From positions 9,067-73,066 of the forward strand of contig JAZDPK010000030.1 of the NCBI GenBank assembly GCA_043797615.1: a DNA stretch of 64,000 nt, written 5' to 3'. Shown here one piece after another: positions 2,968-47,217 of the stretch (within the stretch, counting starts at the first letter, position 1; the number at the start of each line of letters is the position of its first letter). The stretch comes from Parcubacteria group bacterium (GTDB taxonomy: Bacteria > Patescibacteriota > Patescibacteriia > UBA11705 > JABHMO01). The notes beneath the pieces were generated by a model. It did no database searches, had not been told where the DNA came from, and saw only the letters and a program-made list of their open reading frames with translations. The position numbers were made by a program, and so were the translations under genes.

Positions 2968-5592
2968 TTATTTAAACGCCACTTTTCCTCCCTGATAATC
3001 CACTTTGATTTTATTTTTCACCGTTCCTTTGATAATCTGCAGTGCCAGCTGGTCGAGAATTTTATTTTGAATCAAGCGCTTGAGCGGCCGCGCGCCGAAC
3101 GCCGGATCAAATCCTTCGTCCGCCAGCATATTTTTCACCGCGTCCGTGAAGGCGATATCGAGGTCCTTGCCTGCCAATCGCTTGGCCACCTTGGCGAGCT
3201 GGAAGTCGACGATTTGCTTGATGTCCGCTTTGGACAAGGCGTCGAAAATGATGATTTCGTCGATGCGGTTCAGAAATTCCGGCCGAAAATGATCTTTCAG
3301 CATGGACATTATTTTCTTGTCGGTATTTTCCTTTTGCGAAACGCTGTGGCTGCTGAATCCAAGGTCGCTCTTGTTCAGCGATTCCAGGATCATGTCGCTG
3401 CCGATGTTCGAAGTCATTATGATCACCGTGTTTTTAAAGTTAACCGTGCGGCCTTTCGCGTCAGTCAGGCGGCCGTCGTCTAGGAGTTGCAGAAGCATGT
3501 TGAAAACCTCCGGATGCGCTTTTTCGATTTCATCGAACAGCACGACGGAGTAGGGCCGGCGCCTGATCTGCTCGGTCAATTGCCCGCCTTCATCATAACC
3601 AACGTAGCCAGGAGGCGAGCCGATCAATTTCGAGACGGCGTGCTTCTCCATGTATTCGGACATGTCCACGCGAACAACAGCATCCTCGCTGTTGAACATG
3701 AATTCCGCCAGCGCCCGCGCCAATTCGGTCTTGCCCACGCCGGTCGGGCCGAGGAACAAGAATGAACCGATCGGCCGGTTTTCCTCTGAAATTCCGGCTC
3801 TCGATCTGCGCAAAGCGTTCGCCACCGCTTGAATCGCGCGCTCTTGGCCGACAACGCGCTTGGAAAGATCGGTTTCCGCATGCGCCAATTTTTCGATTTC
3901 GCTCTGCAGCATTTTCGACACCGGAATGCCAGTCCACTTTGAAACAACCGCGGCGATGTCTTCGGCCGTAACTTCTTCCTTTAAAATCTTATGGCCGCCC
4001 GGGCCGGCTTGCAATTTGCGCAGCTTCGCCTGCAATGTTTTGATTTTTTTCTCGTTTTCCGGAATCTTGCCGAAACGGATTTCCGCGACTTTGTCGTATT
4101 CCGCTTTTCTTTCCAAAATTTCTGATTCCTGCTTCAATTTGTCGATCTGCTTTTTCGAATCCTGGATTTGCACGATCAATTCCTTTTCCTTGCGCCAATG
4201 CAGTTCAAGCTCATGCTCTTTTTCTTTCAATTCTTCAAGGCGCTTGGTGATGTCGCGCAGTTTATTTTTAACGTCAGCGCTTTTCTCGCGGCTGATCGCT
4301 TGCTTTTCAATTTCCAGTTTTTTTACTTTGCGCTTCAACTGATCAAGCTCGATCGGCATGCTGTCAAGCTCGATGCGGAGCGCGGAAGTGGCTTCGTCGA
4401 TCAGATCGATCGCCTTGTCCGGCAGAAACCGATCGGTGATGTAGCGCTGCGAAAGGCGGGCGGCCTCGATGATCGCGTCGTCCGTGATATGCACGCCGTG
4501 GTGCACTTCGTATTTTTCCTTGATGCCGCGCAAAATCGAAATCGCGTCGTCCAGGCTCGGCTCGGCGACGTAAACCGGCTGAAACCTTCTTTCCAAAGCC
4601 GCGTCTTTTTCAATGTATTTCTGATATTCCTTCAAAGTCGTCGCGCCTACGCAGCGCAATTCGCCGCGCGCCAAAGCCGGCTTCAGCATGTTTGACGCGT
4701 CCAGGCTGCCTTCGATCGCGCCCGCGCCGACGATCGTGTGCAATTCGTCGATAAAAATAATGTATTTGTCCTTATTTTTTCGGATTTCGCTTAAAACGGT
4801 TTTTAAACGTTCCTCGAATTCGCCGCGGAATTTCGATCCGGCGATGAGGCTGCCGATGTCCAAATTCAAAACTTCCTTGTTCTTCAAATTTTCCGGCACG
4901 TCGCAAGAGACAATGCGCTGGGCCAATCCTTCGGCGATCGCGGTCTTGCCCACGCCCGGCTCGCCGATCAGCACCGGATTATTTTTTGTTCGACGTGATA
5001 AAACCTGAAGCACGCGCCGTATTTCCTCGTCGCGTCCGATGATCGGGTCCAGTTTTTCCTCGCGCGCCATCTGCGTCAGATTGATCGTGTATTTTTCCAG
5101 CGCCTGGTATTTGCTTTCCGGCTCGGGCGAATCAACCCGCTGTCCGCCGCGCACTTCGGCCAATATTTTCAGCGCCGCGTTATAATCGATGCCGTAGGAA
5201 ATCAAAATTTCCGCGGCGAGCGAATCGACTTGCAGCAAAGACAGGAAAAGGTGCTCGGTGCTGATGAATTCGTCGCCGAGCTTCTTCGCTTCTTTTTCCG
5301 CGCTCACCATCGCGTAATTCATCTGCGGAGTGATGAAAACCTGGCCGGCCATGGTCGGCTGCTTCATCTGGCTTTTCGGCATGCGCTTCAAATTGGCTTC
5401 GACATCGGCGATCAGCTGCTCGAAAGGCACTTCCATTTTTTTTAACACTGTGAGCACGATGCTTTGATCCTGTTGAAGCAGAGCGTAAAGCAGGTGGATC
5501 GTATCGACCTGGGAATGTTTGTATTCGAACGCCGCGGCCTGCGACGCTTGCATAGCCTGCTGGCTGTTCATGGTGAATTTGTTGATATCCAT
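2968..5592 (-). CDS. clpB: ATP-dependent chaperone/disaggregase ClpB
   Basis: 874 aa with two AAA+ modules ([16 protein letters not shown]), a long coiled-coil middle domain and a Clp N-domain. Confidence 0.97.
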
Positions 5593-10208: not shown

Positions 10209-10237
10209 ATTATAGCACACTTTAATAATTTTGTCAA
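10209..10237 (-). promoter_or_regulatory. Consensus sigma70 promoter of the GC-rich gene
   Basis: The minus strand reads TTGACA-17 nt-TATAAT, with TGTGC immediately before the -10. Confidence 0.65.
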
Positions 10238-10377
10238 TAGCCGCTGTCGGTTAAACAAATTAATTACTAAATTTAGAGTGAATTGTGTGTTATAATGTAC
10301 AGGCATTATGCAGAATAAACGAAAAAACGGAAAAACGAATGAACTAACGTAGATATGAGCAAACAAAAAACACAATA

Positions 10378-10491
10378 CTTCACAAAACGACGCGCATTGT
10401 CATTCTGAACTTGCCGCGCCCTGCACTTGCAAACTTGCATAGTGCAAGGGATTCAGAATCCGACAATGCGCGGAGACAATCTTCACAAAAC
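10378..10491. repeat. MITE-like insertion: an 82-nt long-stem inverted repeat flanked by an 11-bp direct repeat
   Basis: CTTCACAAAAC occurs at 10378-10388 and again at 10481-10491. Between them, the arms CGCGCATTGTCATTCTGAA (10391-10409) and TTCAGAATCCGACAATGCGCG (10452-10472) pair with a 2-nt bulge. Confidence 0.5.
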
Positions 10492-10536
10492 AATAATTTT
10501 CATATATAATTGAATTATTCATAATAAAATAGAGAA

Positions 10537-10620
10537 ATGAGATAAATGTGATAAACGAGATAAACGCGATTTACTAGATAGTTGTGTCTGGACAATCTCG
10601 TTTATCCCGTTCATCTCGTT
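10537..10620 (+). promoter_or_regulatory. Iteron-like repeats and a long imperfect hairpin in the gltX 5' leader
   Basis: Three tandem GATAAAYGN units span 10541-10567. The arm 10537-10563 pairs with 10594-10620 over about 27 positions, allowing G-U pairs and 2 mismatches. The hairpin ends 8 nt before the gltX ATG. Confidence 0.45.
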
Positions 10621-10628
10621 AAATAAAT

Positions 10629-15140: not shown

Positions 15141-15763
15141 AGTATTTGCATCGTATATTGTTTCGCATAATGCTAATTAAGAGAGACAATATACAATAAA
15201 TATAACATGCGCAAATCAAATTGACGATCAATCCTTGTGGATAATCTTTTATATGCAATCATATTCGTTCAAGAGAATAAACGCTATAATCGCAATATAA
15301 AGCCTCGTTTTTATGCCAAATCGGGATATATATATGTATCAAGGGAATTGAACACCTATACATAGATGACCCTTAAACATGATTTAACATACATATACGT
15401 CATAAATATTGTCTTTAAAACCAATTTAATTTTTTTTAAACTGAAATCAGGATCAATCCGGCCAAGTCGCCTTTATTAGCATTAACAATATTTATTCCAA
15501 ACAATTTTCAATCCGTCTCTACACTCTGTTTCTCGAACCGCTCTGCTTTTATGTGTCGTAAAATAATTAACAAGGGAACGGAAGAATATTATTAAAATTA
15601 TAAAACCGCCATATCATTGATACGACGGTTTGATTTTCAATAATTAAGAACAACCACCGGTCAGATGTCCAGGATCATGGTTGATAAGAGTATTCGTCAT
15701 GCAAAAAACGCGCATACTTTTTTGCAACGCTTTTTTGTTTTCACTTTCACAATCATTATCCTT

Positions 15764-18272: not shown

Positions 18273-18627
18273 ATTTGATAATTAATAATTATATTTAAAA
18301 TAAAAACATATTTTACTTCCCCGCAGGGACATGATTTTAATTTTTGTCAGATATATTTTCATATTGCATGCTATCATAATAGCGTAAATTCAACCTTTTG
18401 CAAAGCGCGCAATTATTCATATCTGTTTATAAATATCATCCTAACTTTATTCAATTTTACATTAAATTAATCAAAACAGTTGACAACTACGCTGTTCACT
18501 GGTTTTTATGGCCGTTGTGGCTGCCGGTGATCGCGCTGGAAGTGCTCGTGAAATGCGGCGCCGAGCTGCACTACCACTGGCTCTTTCGCCGCCAGCGCTC
18601 CATGACGGCACTCTAACAGCCGCCGTC

Positions 18628-18662
18628 AAAATTCCCGCTTCGGTCTTCCGACGCGGGAATTT
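18628..18662 (+). terminator. Plus-strand terminator closing a GC-rich intergenic island
   Basis: A 10-bp perfect stem, AAATTCCCGC/GCGGGAATTT, is followed by TCATTTTAAAAAAA. Confidence 0.5.
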
Positions 18663-18681
18663 CATTTTAAAAAAATAAAAA

Positions 18682-18708
18682 CCCCGCATCAGCGCGCCGA
18701 TGCGGGGT
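18682..18708. terminator. Bidirectional terminator downstream of 18714..19166
   Basis: Stem CCCCGCATC/GATGCGGGG, with an A-tract before and a T-tract after. Confidence 0.7.
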
Positions 18709-18713
18709 TATTT

Positions 18714-37144: not shown

Positions 37145-37228
37145 AAATTTGATATTTAATTATACAGGCATTATACAACAGCTTTATCGTTAAAAAAAGA
37201 AAAGCCTTGTTCGATTGCGAACCAGGCT

Positions 37229-37366
37229 TTAGTTGATTTTCACCCCGCGCTTTTCAGCGATTTGCCGGAGTTTCAATTCAACCAAGTCCAGCATTTTTTC
37301 GCTTACTTTTTCGCTAAACTTCGGCTTTTTTAATCCACGCTTGCGCTTTCCTTTCTTAACGTTCAT
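37229..37366 (-). CDS. Small basic protein (45 aa, MNVKKGKRKRGLKKPKF...)
   Basis: SD GGAGGTG lies 5 nt before the ATG. The promoter is TTGACA-17-TAAATT, and a terminator hairpin lies at about 37203-37228. Confidence 0.5.
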   Translation of the reverse strand: MNVKKGKRKRGLKKPKFSEKVSEKMLDLVELKLRQIAEKRGVKIN

Positions 37367-37505
37367 TTTTGCACCTCCGAAATTTTTACTTGTGTTGTAT
37401 GAATTTAGCATAATTAAAAAGCATTGTCAAATCCATGCTATTGCCATTTATTACAATAATAATATAATAAACTGGCTTCAACCATTTATAAACCGGAGGT
37501 AAAAC

Positions 37506-37706
37506 ATGGAATTCTGTCCAAGATGCGCGAACATTCTGATTGAAAAAGAGACTCATCTTGCTTGCAGCAGCAAAGGATGTTCATACGCTATTCGAAAAAA
37601 AACGATTGAATCCGATCCAAGAAGAAAAACTGTCAATCGCATCAACGAGCGCGCCGGACTGCAGGGACTGACCAGAGACGGCCGGTCGGTGCTCGGAAAC
37701 AGATAA
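37506..37706 (+). CDS. Small zinc-ribbon protein (66 aa, MEFCPRCANIL...)
   Basis: CPRC...C..KGC forms a zinc-ribbon pattern. SD GGAGGT lies 5 nt before the ATG. The promoter is TTGCCA-16-TATAAT. Confidence 0.55.
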   Translation: MEFCPRCANILIEKETHLACSSKGCSYAIRKKTIESDPRRKTVNRINERAGLQGLTRDGRSVLGNR

Positions 37707-37747
37707 CGCTCGCAAAAGAGCGAACCTAAAAGGATCGCTCTTTAAAT

Positions 37748-41001: not shown

Positions 41002-41688
41002 TCATGGTTGTCCTGTTTTTTTAGATTGCTTTATCGAACTGATCACTATAACAAATTCGCCTTTTTGTTTATCCTTAACTTGCTCAATCACTTCATCGAT
41101 ATTTCCGCGGTAAATCGACTCGAACACCTTCGTCATTTCGCGGCAAACCACGATTTTGCGGTTTGAACCGATGTGATTTTTCAATTCAGTCAGATTTTTC
41201 AGAACGCGGTGCGGCGAATCGTAATAGCATACTGTCATGTCTGCATTTTCTATCGTTTCATAAAATTTCGTTTTGCCTTTGTGCGGAATAAAACCGAGGA
41301 ATAAAAATTTATCCGTGGGCAAACCGGAAACCGATAAGGCGGAAATCGCCGCGCACGGACCCGGAATCGGAATAATGTTAGCGCCGGATTGAAGCGCAAT
41401 TTCCACGATTTTATTTCCCGGATCGGAAATGCCCGGCGTGCCCGCGTCCGTCGCGTAAGCGATTTGATTGAATTGATTTATTGATTTTTTGATTTCTTCT
41501 TCTCTTGAATGCTGGTGGAAACTGATCATCCTTTTGTTGACTTCATAATGCTTGAGTAATTTTCCCGTCTGCCGCGTGTCTTCGCAGAAAATAACGTCAA
41601 CGCTTTTTAAAATTTCAATCGCTCTCAAAGTCATGTCCTTGAGATTTCCGATCGGCGTCGCGACAATGTACAGATTTTTGTTTTCCAT
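41002..41688 (-). CDS. rsmI: 16S rRNA (cytidine1402-2'-O)-methyltransferase RsmI
   Basis: 228 aa. Contains LYIVATPIGNLKDMTLRA...IFCEDTR. Confidence 0.9.
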   Translation of the reverse strand: MENKNLYIVATPIGNLKDMTLRAIEILKSVDVIFCEDTRQTGKLLKHYEVNKRMISFHQHSREEEIKKSINQFNQIAYATDAGTPGISDPGNKIVEIALQSGANIIPIPGPCAAISALSVSGLPTDKFLFLGFIPHKGKTKFYETIENADMTVCYYDSPHRVLKNLTELKNHIGSNRKIVVCREMTKVFESIYRGNIDEVIEQVKDKQKGEFVIVISSIKQSKKTGQP

Positions 41689-41791
41689 AAAACAATATTA
41701 TTGTAACGGAAAATTGCGAATTTGTCCATTTACCGACTAATGGATTGAAGTGAAATTTGCGCTTTATTGATAATCGCGATATAATGTTTTT

Positions 41792-41876
41792 GCCTTTGAA
41801 TTTCTTGCGGGATCAAGGTTCAGGGGCGTTCCCCACATGCCCCGTTGGTAATTTCGCCGACGGGGCTCTTTTTTTA
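41792..41876 (+). ncRNA. Candidate small RNA (about 85 nt)
   Basis: A TTGCGC-17-TATAAT promoter (41757-41785) is followed by a terminator GCCCCGT/ACGGGGC (41839-41866) plus TCTTTTTTT. There is no ORF. Confidence 0.3.
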
Positions 41877-42052
41877 ATAAAAAATACTATCCACAAATGC
41901 CTTGCATATTATTTTTGCATAGCTGTCTTATAATGATTTCGCTCACATAAACATGCGAAAACGCATTCGAAGCGCCTCGCTTTTGCGATGGAATGAGGCG
42001 CTTATTTTTTATTAATTTTAGATAAAAAATGTATATTTAATAATCAACGCTG

Positions 42053-42081
42053 TTGACAATATTTTAATTTTATGCTATACT
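42053..42081 (+). promoter_or_regulatory. Consensus sigma70 promoter of the orphan structured transcript
   Basis: TTGACA (42053-42058), a 17-nt spacer, then TATACT (42076-42081). Confidence 0.65.
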
Positions 42082-42336
42082 ATCCACATGTTCCTTAAAA
42101 ATGGTCGGGTCGTTTATCCCGGCCGGGAAAACTGGGGCTGAAAAAGCGCCCCCAAAAAAACGGGGTCTGACCAGGCCCCACCTGCGAAGCGCCGCTTCGC
42201 TCGAGCTAATGGACTCCCGTTGTCAAAGGGAGAGGTCTCGAGCGCATGCGCCGCAAAAATCCTTAAACCGTCGGCCGATTCATTCGCATATTGCGATGAA
42301 TCCAAGCCCCTACTAGTTAGAAAGGAGGAACAGGGA

Positions 42337-42369
42337 ATGAGTACGCTATATCCGTGTCCGTTTCTGTAG
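42337..42369 (+). CDS. Micro-ORF 1: MSTLYPCPFL*
   Basis: AGAAAGGAGGAAC lies 8 nt before the ATG. It is a paralog of micro-ORF 2. Confidence 0.4.
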   Translation: MSTLYPCPFL

Positions 42370-42493
42370 TGACGATTTGTGTCGCGGCATGTTCAACCCG
42401 CCGAGCCAAATAAATCCGGGCGCATAATCCTACGCCAGCGCCCAACGCCTAAAACGGATTTCGGCCGGCACGACCTTAAGAAAGGAGGAACGG

Positions 42494-42526
42494 GTGGCAT
42501 ATCTTTATCCAGTTCCGTTCTACTAG
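42494..42526 (+). CDS. Micro-ORF 2: (GTG)MAYLYPVPFY*
   Basis: An identical AGAAAGGAGGAAC lies 5 nt before the GTG. The shared L-Y-P-x-P-F is encoded with synonymous differences. Confidence 0.4.
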   Translation: MAYLYPVPFY

Positions 42527-42748
42527 CGTAGTGGTCGTGGGTGCGGCTGACAACCTGTAAAAGTTAGGCCGCGTTTATCAACCTCCTCAACAACGGGCGC
42601 AGGAGTTATTACTATGACGATGTAGTTACGAGGGCACCCGAATACAAGGAAAGACGCCGGGCAAAGGTGAAGTTCAGATCACCTTAATAACTGAACGGGC
42701 GCGAGACTTCGCGTCTGGCCATACTGGATAAGGCTTGAATCCAGCTCG

Positions 42749-42784
42749 ATCAGGAAGCGACACAGCTTGCCTGATTTCTTTTTT
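42749..42784 (+). terminator. Terminator 1 of the orphan transcript
   Basis: ATCAGGAAGC...GCTTGCCTGAT stem with one bulge, followed by TTCTTTTTT. Confidence 0.6.
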
Positions 42785-42794
42785 AAAAAAATCC

Positions 42795-42828
42795 CACTAT
42801 CATGCTCTATAGCATGATAGTGTTTTTT
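42795..42828. terminator. Terminator 2 (bidirectional)
   Basis: A 12-bp perfect stem, CACTATCATGCT/AGCATGATAGTG, with a 4-nt loop, then TTTTTT. An A-tract lies upstream. A related hairpin lies at about 51494-51520. Confidence 0.65.
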
Positions 42829-42865
42829 ACTTTTAAGATTTCTGTTTTTATGCTACATTAAAAAC

Positions 42866-43744
42866 ATGAAATCCAAACGGAACAAAACCATTTTCGTTGT
42901 CTTGGAAGATTACAAGCGCTTCCCTATCTTAAAATTAAACTCTAAATTCCAGGCTCTAAATTCTAAACAAATTAAAAATTCAAAATCTAAAATACAAAAT
43001 CAAATCTTTTTCGGCGATTCATTGAGAGAAATGAAAAAATTGCCGAAAGGGAGCATTGATTTAACCGTAACCGATCCGCCGTACACGATTAAACGCGATT
43101 TCGGCAAAGGCACAATCAATACCGATTTAAACAATTTCACTGCCTGGTGCGAACGATGGATTGCGGAATGCGCCAGATTATTAAAGAAGAGCGGCTCGAT
43201 TTACATTTGCATAAACTGGGAAGCGTCGTCGATTGTTGAGGAAATATTGAAAAAATATTTTATTATTCAAAACCGGATAACCTGGAAGCGCGACAAAGGC
43301 CGCGGCGCCAAGCGAAATTGGAAAAACAACCTGGAAGACATCTGGTTCGCCACGAAATCGAACGATTACACTTTCAATTTAAGCGACGTTAAAATAGAAA
43401 AACCGGTCATCGCGCCGTATGTCGACGAGCGCGGCAATCCGAAGGACTGGAAAATCGTTGACGGCAAAAAAATCCGCCTCACCCATCCGTCGAACATCTG
43501 GACCGACCTGGTCGTGCCTTTCTGGTCCATGCCGGAAAACACCGAGCATCCCACGCAAAAGCCGGAAAAATTAATCGAAAGAATAATCCTCGCAAGTTCG
43601 AACAAAGGCGACTTAGTATTCGACCCGTTCATTGGCTCGGGCACCACCGCGGTCGTCGCGAAAAAACTGGGCCGGAATTATCTGGGGTTTGAAATTGAAA
43701 AAAAATTTTATATTTTAACGCAGAAACGGTTGGCTTCGATTTAA
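42866..43744 (+). CDS. Beta-class DNA methyltransferase (N6-A or N4-C), with no nuclease partner in sight
   Basis: DLTVTDPPY (motif IV) precedes DPFIGSGTT (motif I). Codons ~24-45 are made of the CTAAATTCTAAA repeat sequence. Confidence 0.85.
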   Translation: MKSKRNKTIFVVLEDYKRFPILKLNSKFQALNSKQIKNSKSKIQNQIFFGDSLREMKKLPKGSIDLTVTDPPYTIKRDFGKGTINTDLNNFTAWCERWIAECARLLKKSGSIYICINWEASSIVEEILKKYFIIQNRITWKRDKGRGAKRNWKNNLEDIWFATKSNDYTFNLSDVKIEKPVIAPYVDERGNPKDWKIVDGKKIRLTHPSNIWTDLVVPFWSMPENTEHPTQKPEKLIERIILASSNKGDLVFDPFIGSGTTAVVAKKLGRNYLGFEIEKKFYILTQKRLASI

Positions 43745-47074: not shown

Positions 47075-47217
47075 AAAATTCAGTTTTGATTCGACTTGTT
47101 AATCTTTCGATAATTATGAAGAATGGCGCGCTTGACAAATCTATTTATATCAAATAAGATGTGTTTATACAAATTGTTCATTAACACCAGTTGTCATACT
47201 GGAAAAGGAGGAAAACC

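What the first reader, a model, noticed from the sequence alone, without database searches (positions are those of the whole stretch)
42053..42828. Orphan, hairpin-dense ~0.7 kb transcription unit with a perfect promoter and tandem terminators in a 1.1 kb gene desert
Between rsmI (ends 41688) and the methyltransferase (starts 42866) nothing has coding character, yet the region carries strong expression signals.
- Promoter: TTGACA-17-TATACT at 42053-42081.
- Body: about 700 nt, visibly more GC-rich than its AT-rich flanks.
- End: a hairpin plus U-tract (42749-42784), then a second perfect 12-bp hairpin plus T6 (42795-42828).
- Perfect local stems I could pair by eye:
  - GCGAAGC/GCTTCGC, 42184-42200
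  - CTCCC/GGGAG, 42214-42232
  - TTCATTCGCA/TGCGATGAA, 42279-42300
  - AAATCCG/CGGATTT, 42412-42461, enclosing GGCGC/GCGCC
  - GCGGC/GCCGC, 42543-42572
  - GGTGA/TCACC, 42666-42683
  - CTGGAT/ATCCAG, 42724-42744
I could not find the signature motifs of RNase P RNA (GAGGAAAGUCCGGGC), tmRNA (tRNA-like ends, ANDENYALAA-type tag) or SRP RNA. In a streamlined genome a unit this large and well signalled is unlikely to be junk. It is a candidate for an undescribed large ncRNA or a dual-function RNA.
Basis: partly seen in the sequence, partly recalled or inferred. Interest (0 to 1): 0.85.

Follow-up and report, generated by a model that had tools for sequence, protein, structure and literature searches.

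The report
Mini-gene RNA with pseudoknotted tail
The "orphan non-coding RNA" is a real, strongly signalled transcript found only in one group of Parcubacteria, but it carries two conserved ten-codon genes and ends in a conserved folded RNA tail, so it is not a large structured RNA.

Summary
The promoter (TTGACA-17-TATACT with an extended -10), both terminators, the GC-rich body and every listed stem are at the stated coordinates, and no Rfam family matches.

The unit contains two 10-codon ORFs with identical strong ribosome-binding sites:
- ORF1, 42337-42369: MSTLYPCPFL
- ORF2, 42494-42526: MAYLYPVPFY

In the nearest relative (RsmI 88% identical) they read MAMLYPTPFG and MAYLYPAPFY. For ORF2, 8 of 10 nucleotide differences are at third codon positions, and the start (GTG/ATG) and stop (TAG/TAA) are swapped but kept. 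None of 200,000 random-substitution trials reproduced this.

Most of the body between the ORFs is not conserved, and 128 nt are largely missing (101 gapped) in that relative. Conserved RNA structure is confined to about 90 nt at the 3' end (42660-42745): three hairpins and a loop-to-downstream pseudoknot that covaries in four lineages.

Related loci between the same DNA methyltransferase and rsmI carry other mini-ORFs ([YF]TSGF, MHWP). Three relatives that have the methyltransferase lack the island.

Best reading: a new dual-function transcript, combining a mini-gene mRNA with a structured 3' RNA module. What the peptides do is unknown.

The parts
42053..42081 (+). Sigma-70-type promoter TTGACA-17-TATACT with a TG extension. 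The inferred transcription start is about 42088.
   Evidence: 11/12 matches. 92% identical in L001. 90% identical over 31 nt to the fourth promoter of L039, spacer included. The transcription start is inferred, not mapped.
42088..42318 (+). 5' hairpin-rich region.
   Evidence: 75% identity to L001 over 42088-42200 and 47% over 42201-42318. The first hairpin, GGTCGGG/CCCGGCC, reads GGACGG/CCGTCC in L001. It cannot be aligned beyond L001.
42320..42331 (+). Ribosome-binding site 1 (GAAAGGAGGAAC)
   Evidence: this exact 12-mer occurs only twice in the 64 kb window, both times in this unit. It is as good as the best gene RBSs in the window.
42337..42369 (+). Mini-ORF 1, ATG...TAG, 10 codons: MSTLYPCPFL
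   Evidence: The L001 ortholog is MAMLYPTPFG: the L-Y-P-x-P-F core is kept with synonymous changes (CTA/CTG, TTT/TTC) while codon 7 changes at all three bases. In the random-substitution test 565 of 200,000 trials did as well.
42370..42478 (+). Inter-ORF spacer with a nested hairpin (AAATCCG/CGGATTT around GGCGC/GCGCC). Its sequence is not conserved.
   Evidence: 29% identity to L001, 30 gaps.
42480..42491 (+). Ribosome-binding site 2 (GAAAGGAGGAAC)
42494..42526 (+). Mini-ORF 2, GTG...TAG, 10 codons: MAYLYPVPFY
   Evidence: The L001 ortholog is MAYLYPAPFY: 10 nucleotide differences, 8 at third codon positions, start GTG/ATG and stop TAG/TAA both kept, one amino-acid change. None of 200,000 random-substitution trials did as well. 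Related 10-codon ORFs: MCSRYPVGVY in L019 and MRFAPCYNFY in L039.
42527..42654 (+). Variable linker. It holds the GCGGC/GCCGC hairpin, a CCTCCT anti-SD-like motif at 42583-42588 and a CAACAACGG motif. It is largely absent from L001.
   Evidence: 101 of 128 positions gapped in L001. AACAAC-type motifs recur in L001, L003, L040 and L041 (read).
42660..42745 (+). Conserved 3' RNA domain.
- P1: 42664-42670 with 42679-42685
- Pseudoknot: loop GTTCAG 42672-42677 with CTGAAC 42691-42696
- P2: 42698-42704 with 42709-42715
- Invariant GCCA: 42718-42721
- P3: 42724-42729 with 42739-42744, loop AAGGCTTGA
   Evidence: Hand alignment A5 of five loci. 99.1% of cells are paired and 19 of 27 pairs change on both sides; with partners slid by 1-3 columns only 30-41% are paired. 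Pseudoknot variants: GTTCAG/CTGAAC, CTACAG/CTGTAG, GTCGG/CCGAC, TCGG/CCGA. Shuffle test per lineage: 0.003, 0.005, 0.011 and 0.086. 86% identical to L001. MFE z = -3.65. Model R1 scores all five loci at E 2e-7 to 2e-4, as expected by construction.
42749..42784 (+). Intrinsic terminator 1 (ATCAGGAAGC...GCTTGCCTGAT plus UUUCUUUUUU)
   Evidence: In L001 only the loop differs.
42795..42828 (.). Terminator 2: a perfect 12-bp palindrome flanked by an A-run and a T-run, so it can act in both directions.
   Evidence: called on both strands. In L001 the stem reads ACTCCCATG/CATGGGAGT, with compensatory changes.
42851..42868 (+). The methyltransferase gene's own extended -10 (TGcTACATT), followed 6 nt later by its ATG. 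The mRNA looks leaderless. This marks the downstream boundary of the unit.
   Evidence: The same TGnTATAAT-6 nt-ATG arrangement is seen in L019 and L021. Inferred, not mapped.

Best explanation
Positions 42088-42784 (or to 42828) form an independently transcribed RNA of about 0.7 kb that is restricted to one clade and does two things.

(1) It is a bicistronic mini-gene mRNA. A near-consensus promoter and two identical, optimal ribosome-binding sites drive translation of two paralogous 10-residue peptides, MSTLYPCPFL and MAYLYPVPFY. Selection acts on the peptide sequence, with core L-Y-P-x-P-F, one more residue, then stop.

(2) Its last ~90 nt before the terminators fold into a conserved module of three hairpins plus an H-type pseudoknot.

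Shown by sequence and comparison: the signals, the ORFs, purifying selection on the peptides, covariation in the 3' domain, the conserved position between the DNA methyltransferase and rsmI, and the patchy presence of the island.

Inferred: the peptides themselves are the main product. I think they are short aromatic- and proline-rich effector or signal peptides, made in bulk and diversifying between lineages. I also infer that the 3' pseudoknot domain with its tandem terminators protects the short mRNA, or persists as a separate small RNA. The rest of the hairpin-rich body is fast-evolving spacer.
For: Signals:
- Promoter and terminators.
- The RBS 12-mer occurs only at the two ORFs in 64 kb. 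Real genes in the window use the same AGGAGG-type RBS.

Peptide-level selection:
- ORF2 against its L001 ortholog: 8 of 10 differences at third positions, start and stop swapped but kept, 0 of 200,000 random trials as good. ORF1: 565 of 200,000.
- Other lineages in the same syntenic gap carry other mini-ORF families, also conserved at the amino-acid level. MRYTSGFP and MYTSGFD (L005) match MRFTSGFA and MKFTSGFL (L021), with serine encoded by TCC in one and AGC in the other. MHWP is GTG-CAC-TGG-CCG-TAG in L005 and ATG-CAC-TGG-CCC-TAA in L040.
- A scan for the core motif in RBS-preceded mini-ORFs, over all loci and the window, hit the gaps plus two stray matches elsewhere (L011, L020) that I took to be chance.

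RNA level:
- Nucleotide conservation against L001 is concentrated in the promoter (92%), the 3' domain (86%) and the ORFs, while the spacers are 11-47% identical.
- 3' domain covariation. Fold z = -3.65.

Context:
- Synteny of methyltransferase, gap, rsmI and metG in L001, L003, L005/6, L039 and L040, and of methyltransferase, gap and rsmI in L021 and L041.
- No Rfam, tRNA/tmRNA, phage or plasmid match.

Precedents for genes this short: mccA, 7 codons, whose short transcript ends at a ribosome-controlled terminator (PMC4231749), and the 5-codon biarylitide genes (PMC12002111, PMC13417212). For dual-function RNAs see PMC12612679 and PMC12310071.
Against: - There are no expression data of any kind. 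Translation is inferred from comparison alone.
- The strongest selection test rests on a single ortholog pair (window and L001).
- The conserved neighbourhood contains no modifying enzyme, exporter or receptor gene. It holds YceG, Translin, a TrpR-like protein, Ham1, the methyltransferase, RsmI, MetRS, TatD and CvpA.
- Unmodified peptides of 4-10 residues are normally degraded quickly.
- The peptide families differ greatly between lineages.
- The 3' domain was not detected in the [YF]TSGF units of L005 and L021. The two modules are therefore separable, and any functional link between them is conjecture.
- The 3' domain alignment was fitted by hand to the structure, so its pair counts lean towards that structure.
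- Predicted RBS accessibility is inconsistent between loci.
Confidence: 0.55

Rival explanations
1. Translation-sensing regulatory RNA. The mini-ORFs encode cis-acting nascent peptides that pause ribosomes (P-x-P and aromatic cores one codon before the stop). Ribosome occupancy would then control the folding, stability or processing of the transcript and its 3' pseudoknot domain, which would be the real effector. The released peptide would have no function of its own.
For: - The core always sits one codon before the stop: LYPxPF-x-stop and [YF]TSGF-x-stop.
- Some mini-ORFs end in Pro-stop (MHWP, MRYTSGFP).
- TAG stops are enriched, 9 of 16 mini-ORFs against 7 of 61 long ORFs in the window. This comparison mixes genomes and the cases are not independent.
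- The 3' domain is the part shared by lineages that carry unrelated peptides (window, L003, L040, L041).
- Amino-acid-level conservation is also what one expects of arrest peptides.
Against: - No cistron follows the ORFs in the transcript.
- ORF2 ends about 135 nt before the domain, and that linker is largely deleted in L001.
- Peptide sequences differ radically between lineages even though the ribosome tunnel is conserved.
- The L005 and L021 units have mini-ORFs but no detectable 3' domain.
- No conserved alternative pairing involving the RBS or the terminator was found.
Confidence: 0.2
2. A purely non-coding, large structured RNA. The GGAGG motifs and the short frames would be RNA-level features or coincidence.
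For: - The MFE is lower than for shuffled sequence (z = -3.0).
- There are many perfect local stems.
- There is a conserved structured 3' domain.
- No ORF longer than 71 aa.
Against: - The third-position substitution pattern, with start and stop swapped but kept, is not expected of RNA-level constraint (0 of 200,000 trials).
- Serine is encoded by TCC in one lineage and AGC in another within the same peptide family.
- Most of the body is not conserved or is deleted in the nearest relative.
- The minus strand folds equally well, so hairpin density alone proves little.
Confidence: 0.1
3. A cis-regulatory leader or attenuator (leader peptide or riboswitch) controlling the downstream DNA methyltransferase gene.
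For: - It lies directly upstream of the methyltransferase and in the same orientation.
- The island was found only next to this methyltransferase orthogroup: it is present in nine lineages that have the methyltransferase and absent from both RsmI relatives that lack it (L004, L007).
- The order leader ORFs, structured domain, terminator resembles an attenuator.
Against: - Two strong terminators in tandem, one of them bidirectional, precede the methyltransferase, which has its own extended -10 promoter and a leaderless-looking start.
- In L040 the unit with the pseudoknot domain is separated from the methyltransferase by two further promoter-terminator units.
- L038, L042 and L043 keep the methyltransferase without the island.
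- No antiterminator pairing was evident.
- The co-occurrence can be explained by shared ancestry.
Confidence: 0.07
4. Fast-evolving intergenic DNA in which promoter-like, RBS-like and terminator-like sequences arise and decay without function.
For: The island is dispensable. Its content turns over rapidly, and beyond L001 only the promoters give blastn matches.
Against: - Peptide-level purifying selection.
- Covariation in the 3' domain across four lineages.
- Perfect promoters recur in every island.
Confidence: 0.05

Closest known systems
Bacterial dual-function RNAs, i.e. sRNAs that also encode a small protein: RNAIII/delta-hemolysin, SgrS/SgrT, SR1/SR1P, Spot 42/SpfP, VcdRP (reviews PMC12612679, PMC12310071)
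   Same: A stand-alone promoter-to-terminator transcript of a few hundred nucleotides. It combines a translated short ORF with a conserved structured RNA segment that is not part of the ORF.
   Different: The ORFs here are far shorter (10 codons; 4-8 in related loci) than the small proteins of these RNAs, which the reviews describe as usually under 50 aa. They also occur in tandem paralogous copies. No base-pairing target or regulatory activity is known for the RNA part. There is no sequence or structure homology to any of these RNAs (Rfam negative).
mccA, the 7-codon microcin C precursor gene, and its short terminator-bounded transcript (PMC4231749, PMC4010828)
   Same: A gene of about 10 codons or fewer with a strong RBS, made from an abundant short transcript that ends at an intrinsic terminator. 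The peptide is the selected product.
   Different: MccA-type peptides end in Asn and are encoded next to mccB (a ThiF-like adenylyltransferase) and export or immunity genes. Here the peptides end in L, Y or G, and the Pfam listings for neighbouring genes show no MccB-like gene. The first terminator lies more than 200 nt after the last ORF rather than directly after it.
Biarylitide precursor genes (bytA, 5 codons, MxYxH) (PMC12002111, PMC13417212)
   Same: Extremely short ORFs rich in aromatic residues that gene callers miss. The peptides need no leader sequence.
   Different: Biarylitide genes sit directly upstream of a cytochrome P450 in Actinobacteria and Myxobacteria. No P450 or other tailoring enzyme is adjacent here, and the motifs differ.
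Leader-peptide attenuators and arrest peptides (Erm, Cat and MsrD leaders, TnaC); named from my own knowledge
   Same: Short RBS-preceded ORFs whose amino-acid sequence is conserved, placed upstream of RNA structure and terminators.
   Different: Those always control a downstream cistron in the same transcript. Here nothing follows before two terminators, and the next gene has its own promoter.
Toxic minigenes such as the lambda bar minigenes, which cause peptidyl-tRNA drop-off (PMC2490762, PMC10192219)
   Same: Strong-RBS ORFs of a few codons (MHWP, MTWT and MICG in related loci).
   Different: Minigene effects depend on codon and tRNA identity. Here synonymous codons read by different tRNAs are interchanged (CTT/CTG, TCC/AGC) while the amino acid is kept.

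Membership tests
Any Rfam 15 family (RNase P RNA, tmRNA, SRP RNA, 6S, OLE, GOLLD, ROOL, raiA, riboswitches and others) | Covariance-model score at or above the family's gathering threshold | tested here: not met
   0 hits at gathering threshold in the window and in 7 related loci. In E-value mode the only matches are far below threshold; the best inside the unit is STnc370, 21.5 bits against a threshold of 54.
tmRNA | tRNA-like acceptor and T-arm ends, and a tag reading frame with no RBS or start codon | tested here: not met
   ARAGORN finds none in the window. The ORFs here have canonical RBSs and start codons.
Dual-function RNA (a functional class, not a homology family) | Stand-alone transcript with its own promoter and terminator | tested here: met
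   Met at the sequence level only: promoter 42053-42081 and terminators 42749-42784 and 42795-42828. No transcript data.
Dual-function RNA (a functional class, not a homology family) | Contains a translated small ORF | tested here: inconclusive
   The comparative evidence is strong: optimal RBS and a synonymous substitution pattern (0 of 200,000 trials). Translation itself cannot be observed with these tools.
Dual-function RNA (a functional class, not a homology family) | An RNA-level (riboregulatory) activity separate from coding | not testable with these tools
   A conserved, covarying 3' domain exists. No target or activity is known.
Microcin C-like (mccA) precursor | Peptide of about 7 residues ending in Asn, encoded next to an MccB (ThiF/E1-like) adenylyltransferase | tested here: not met
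   The peptides are MSTLYPCPFL and MAYLYPVPFY. Neighbouring genes carry the Pfam families YceG, Translin, Trp_repressor, Ham1p_like, N6_N4_Mtase, TP_methylase, tRNA-synt_1, TatD and Colicin_V, with no ThiF.
Biarylitide (bytA) precursor | 5-codon MxYxH-type ORF directly upstream of a cytochrome P450 | tested here: not met
   The motif is absent and no P450 is present in the conserved neighbourhood.
Leader-peptide transcription attenuator | Leader ORF, alternative terminator and antiterminator, and the regulated cistron all in one transcript | tested here: not met
   Two terminators are followed by a separate promoter for the next gene. In L040 the unit is two transcription units away from the methyltransferase. 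No conserved alternative pairing was found.
Riboswitch | Conserved aptamer in the 5' UTR of the regulated gene, with an expression platform | tested here: not met
   The conserved domain lies at the 3' end of its own transcript, downstream of the ORFs. No riboswitch model matches.

The most novel reading that the evidence does not exclude
The gap between the methyltransferase and rsmI in this Parcubacteria clade would be a rapidly diversifying mini-gene island. Several consensus-promoter units would each mass-produce peptides of 4-10 residues without leader sequences (LYPxPF, [YF]TSGF, MHWP and others), placing them among the shortest known protein-coding genes. These ultra-small, probably host-dependent bacteria would use the peptides as signals, antagonists or enzyme and ribosome effectors. 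A previously undescribed pseudoknotted RNA module would serve as a dedicated stabiliser or co-regulator.
Probability: 0.3. Interest if true: 0.8.

Novelty: new variant of a known kind. Interest (0 to 1): 0.6.

Why it matters
Genes of ten codons or fewer are invisible to annotation, and only a handful are understood (microcin C and biarylitide precursors, leader peptides). This locus offers tandem 10-codon genes with clear comparative evidence of selection on the peptide, in Candidate Phyla Radiation (CPR) bacteria, where almost nothing is known about small RNAs or small peptides. It also defines a new structured RNA module of about 90 nt, with a covarying pseudoknot, that is absent from Rfam. 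If the peptides prove to be active molecules, they would add a new source of minimal ribosomal peptides and could bear on how these reduced-genome bacteria interact with hosts. For genome scanning, the case shows that a "hairpin-dense orphan RNA" can hide mini-genes.

Tried and rejected
- **Exact-protein look-ups.** Look-ups of the window's RsmI and methyltransferase found nothing.
- **Genome-collection scan.** The scan with RsmI returned only one close relative, and it lacks the island.
- **Metagenome scan.** The scan with the methyltransferase alignment gave 19 loci. Only L019 and L021 were informative. Homologs at 59% identity or below show no island.
- **Viral contigs.** A scan for the LYPxPF mini-ORF pattern gave 0 hits.
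- **Covariance model R1.** It found the 3' domain only in the loci it was built from, and nothing in L005, L021 or L039.
- **blastn among the gaps.** Beyond window and L001, only promoter segments match.
- **RBS accessibility.** Partition-function folds gave no consistent picture.
- **Hairpins after stop codons.** No consistent hairpin follows the stop codons.
- **Phage and plasmid collections.** No match.
- **Literature.** Searches on CPR small ORFs and ncRNAs found nothing relevant.
- **Leaderless 17-codon ORF at 42088.** I considered and rejected it (MFLKNGR...). The frame is kept in L001, but the C-terminal half changes freely, and the differences fit a conserved hairpin rather than coding.
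- **5S rRNA-like and 16S 3'-end-like resemblances.** GUCU-GCCAUAC and GAUCACCUU resemble rRNA only as I recall those sequences, and no Rfam rRNA model matches.
- **Motif-mimic ideas.** I also considered that the peptides mimic the SSB tail, HbYX or clamp-binding motifs. I rejected this because the termini do not fit.
Full report

Yes. The region between an rsmI-like ORF (minus strand, 41002-41688) and an N6/N4 DNA methyltransferase ORF (plus strand, 42866-43744) is 1177 nt long. It is the largest non-coding gap in the window.

- The promoter TTGACA-17-TATACT with a TG extension lies at 42053-42081 (11 of 12 matches).
- The 12-bp palindromic terminator at 42795-42822 with a T6 run was called on both strands.
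- The first terminator, 42749-42776 plus a U-tract, has a bulge. The scan missed it, but it appears in the MFE fold.
- The body has GC 0.49-0.575, against 0.31-0.41 in the flanks.
- The 703-nt RNA folds better than shuffled sequence (z = -3.0). So does its reverse complement (z = -3.7), which means hairpin density alone does not show function or strand.
- Rfam at gathering threshold gives no hit anywhere in the window, and E-value mode gives only noise. ARAGORN finds no tRNA or tmRNA.

**2.

The 12-mer GAAAGGAGGAAC occurs exactly twice in the 64 kb window, 160 nt apart, both times inside this unit. Each copy is followed at optimal spacing by a 10-codon ORF:

| ORF | Coordinates | Start...stop | Peptide |
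|---|---|---|---|
| ORF1 | 42337-42369 | ATG...TAG | MSTLYPCPFL |
| ORF2 | 42494-42526 | GTG...TAG | MAYLYPVPFY |

Real genes in the window use the same AGGAGG-type ribosome-binding sites (for example at 47206, 34816, 19177 and 15960). These are therefore functional-looking sites of the best class.

**3. Relatives**

The window's RsmI is 100% identical to a protein from an NCBI 'Parcubacteria group bacterium' MAG. Its nearest named relatives are Falkowbacteria and Kuenenbacteria. I fetched contigs through RsmI and methyltransferase homologs.

The arrangement methyltransferase, gap of about 0.6-1.3 kb, rsmI (followed by metG where the contig extends that far) recurs in these loci:

| Locus | Similarity to the window |
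|---|---|
| L001/L002 | RsmI 88% |
| L003 | RsmI 69%, methyltransferase 75% |
| L005/L006 | RsmI 63% |
| L021 | methyltransferase 62% |
| L039 | methyltransferase 74% |
| L040 | methyltransferase 71% |
| L041 | methyltransferase 76% |
| L019 | methyltransferase 70%; only the last 146 nt of the gap are on the contig |

The island is missing in several relatives:
- Three relatives that keep the methyltransferase lack it. L038 has a 172-nt gap to rsmI, L042 has 61 nt, and L043 has a different upstream gene.
- Two RsmI relatives without the methyltransferase lack it (L004, L007).
- Methyltransferase homologs at 59% identity or below lack it.

The island is therefore clade-restricted and dispensable.

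**4. Evidence that the mini-ORFs are coding**

In L001 the orthologous ORFs read MAMLYPTPFG and MAYLYPAPFY.

- **ORF2.** The two sequences differ at 10 of 33 nucleotides, 8 of them at third codon positions. The start changes GTG/ATG, the stop TAG/TAA, and only one amino acid changes. In 200,000 trials that placed the same number of random substitutions, none kept start, stop, open frame and at most one amino-acid change.
- **ORF1.** The L-Y-P-x-P-F core is kept, with CTA/CTG and TTT/TTC synonymous changes, while codon 7 changes at all three bases. 565 of 200,000 trials did as well.
- **Surrounding RNA.** It is far less conserved. The inter-ORF spacer is 29% identical, and in 42527-42654 101 of 128 positions are gapped in L001.

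Other lineages carry different mini-ORFs with equally strong RBSs in the same gap, and these too are conserved at the amino-acid level:
- MRYTSGFP and MYTSGFD in L005 match MRFTSGFA and MKFTSGFL in L021, with serine encoded by TCC in one genome and AGC in the other.
- MHWP is encoded GTG-CAC-TGG-CCG-TAG in L005 and ATG-CAC-TGG-CCC-TAA in L040.
- Further examples are MCSRYPVGVY (L019), MRFAPCYNFY (L039), MLVLYD (L003), MTWT (L040), and MTAKSWS and MTPSR (L041).

Two families share a core of the form aromatic-[P/T]-x-[P/G]-F followed by one residue and the stop. A scan for that core in RBS-preceded mini-ORFs, across about 325 kb of loci plus the window, hit the gaps plus two stray matches elsewhere (L011, L020) that I took to be chance. 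Synonymous switches between codons read by different tRNAs argue that the amino-acid sequence matters, not codon or tRNA identity.

**5. Where conserved RNA structure actually lies**

Nucleotide identity to L001 is highest in the promoter (92%), the 3' domain at 42655-42747 (86%) and terminator 1 (84%).

The 3' domain has the same architecture in four independent lineages (window/L001, L003, L040 unit 1, L041):
- hairpin P1, whose loop pairs with a segment 5-9 nt downstream to form an H-type pseudoknot;
- hairpin P2;
- an invariant GCCA;
- hairpin P3, with an A(A/U)AGG-containing loop;
- then the terminator.

The pseudoknot strands covary: GUUCAG/CUGAAC (window), CUACAG/CUGUAG (L040), GUCGG/CCGAC (L041) and UCGG/CCGA (L003).

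On a hand-made structural alignment (A5), 99.1% of cells are paired and 19 of 27 pairs change on both sides. When partners are slid by 1-3 columns, only 30-41% are paired. That alignment was fitted to the structure, so I also ran an independent test. I shuffled each P1 loop and its downstream segment and asked how often complementarity as long as the observed run appeared. The frequencies were 0.003, 0.086, 0.005 and 0.011 for the four lineages.

The isolated domain folds with z = -3.65. A covariance model built from A5 found no further copies in the loci held here, including L005, L021 and L039. The domain and the mini-ORFs are therefore separable modules. No Rfam family matches any of these loci.

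**6. Interpretation**

The unit is best described as a dual-function transcript: a bicistronic mini-gene mRNA joined to a conserved pseudoknotted 3' RNA module and tandem terminators.

What the evidence shows:
- the signals and the ORFs;
- selection on the peptide sequences;
- covariation in the 3' domain;
- conserved synteny and patchy presence.

What I infer:
- The peptides are the main product. The reasons are the optimal promoter and RBSs, duplication within one transcript, diversification between lineages and an accessory distribution. This pattern is more typical of effector or signal peptides than of housekeeping regulators.
- The 3' module stabilises the short mRNA or persists as an sRNA.

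I could not identify a partner enzyme, exporter or receptor. The conserved neighbours are YceG, Translin, a TrpR-like protein, Ham1, the methyltransferase, RsmI, MetRS, TatD and CvpA.

The main rival is a translation-sensing RNA in which the nascent peptides act in cis. In its favour:
- the core lies one codon before the stop;
- some mini-ORFs end in Pro-stop;
- TAG stops are enriched, 9 of 16 against 7 of 61 (a weak, non-independent comparison).

A role as leader of the methyltransferase gene is unlikely for three reasons. Two terminators are followed by that gene's own extended -10 promoter and a leaderless-looking start. In L040 the unit is two transcription units away from the methyltransferase. 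The methyltransferase persists without the island in three relatives.

**7. Comparison with known systems**

The unit works like a dual-function sRNA (PMC12612679, PMC12310071). In gene size it resembles mccA (PMC4231749) and the biarylitide precursors (PMC12002111, PMC13417212). It fails the defining features of both families:
- there is no C-terminal Asn and no MccB;
- there is no MxYxH motif and no P450.

It has no sequence or structural homolog in Rfam, and no match in the phage or plasmid collections.

**8. Verdict**

I rate it as a new variant of a known kind, with interest 0.6.

The main limitations are:
- there are no expression data;
- the strongest selection test rests on one ortholog pair;
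- the structural alignment was made by hand;
- the function of the peptides is unknown.

Noticed in passing
window 41771-41880: There is a separate small unit upstream. It has a TATAAT-type -10 near 41780 and a strong terminator (11-bp stem at 41839-41866 followed by a T7 run). It is 90% identical in L001, which is more conserved than most of the main RNA. Its only Rfam match is sub-threshold (mmgR/suhB, 22 bits against a threshold of 41, E = 0.07), which I take to be noise. No RBS or mini-ORF was seen in it.
   Followed up: partly
window 41900-42012: There is a second small unit. It has TATAAT at about 41929 and a hairpin AAGCGCCTC/GAGGCGCTT (41970-42003) followed by a T-run. It is 68% identical in L001.
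   Followed up: no
window 42846-42868; L019 120-141; L021 2985-3003: The methyltransferase gene appears to be leaderless: an extended -10 (TGnTATAAT or TACATT) is followed 6 nt later by the ATG in several lineages. The NCBI protein for this gene (P0122, 237 aa) starts about 55 codons downstream of the ATG at 42866. The longer N-terminus (MKSxRNKTI...RFPILKL) is conserved in the orthologs (alignment A2).
   Followed up: partly
mini-ORFs in window, L001, L003, L005, L019, L021, L039, L040, L041: TAG is the stop codon of 9 of 16 mini-ORFs, against 7 of 61 long ORFs in the window (Fisher p = 4e-4). The comparison mixes genomes and includes orthologs, so it is only suggestive.
   Followed up: partly
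L005 about 4190-3905 (minus strand) and L040 about 3175-3470: A second RNA type shares the island. These two units share CCCGTCGCGCAGCA and an AGCCGGTGC terminator with a T-run, but their mini-ORFs are unrelated (MEKFG, MPRVTDN). As I recall the sequence, CCCGUC resembles the 16S h44 strand that contains C1402, the target of RsmI. I did not test this.
   Followed up: no
L040 2494-2535 and 2946-2987: An element of about 42 nt (TTGAC(A/C)CTTCGACTCCTGCTAGTCGCTCAGGGTCTTGACAA), with an internal inverted repeat, occurs directly upstream of two different promoters in the island. It may be an operator.
   Followed up: no
window 42053-42083 vs L039 2803-2833: The promoter is 90% identical over 31 nt between lineages whose transcripts otherwise cannot be aligned, and the match includes the 17-nt spacer. 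This suggests a constraint beyond the two hexamers.
   Followed up: no
window 37145-37747, 15141-15664, 18273-18713, 10221-10628: These are other non-coding gaps of 400-600 nt. The first contains RBS-preceded ORFs of 66 aa (plus strand, RBS at 37495) and 45 aa (minus strand, RBS at 37378).
   Followed up: no
window, whole 64 kb: There are no tRNA genes and no Rfam gathering-threshold hits of any kind in the 64 kb.
   Followed up: no
L001 1948-3332, L003 98-1606 and equivalents (about 44.4-46 kb in the window): The conserved neighbourhood includes a bacterial Translin-family protein and a TrpR/YerC-like protein next to the Ham1 and methyltransferase genes. Translin is unusual in bacteria.
   Followed up: no
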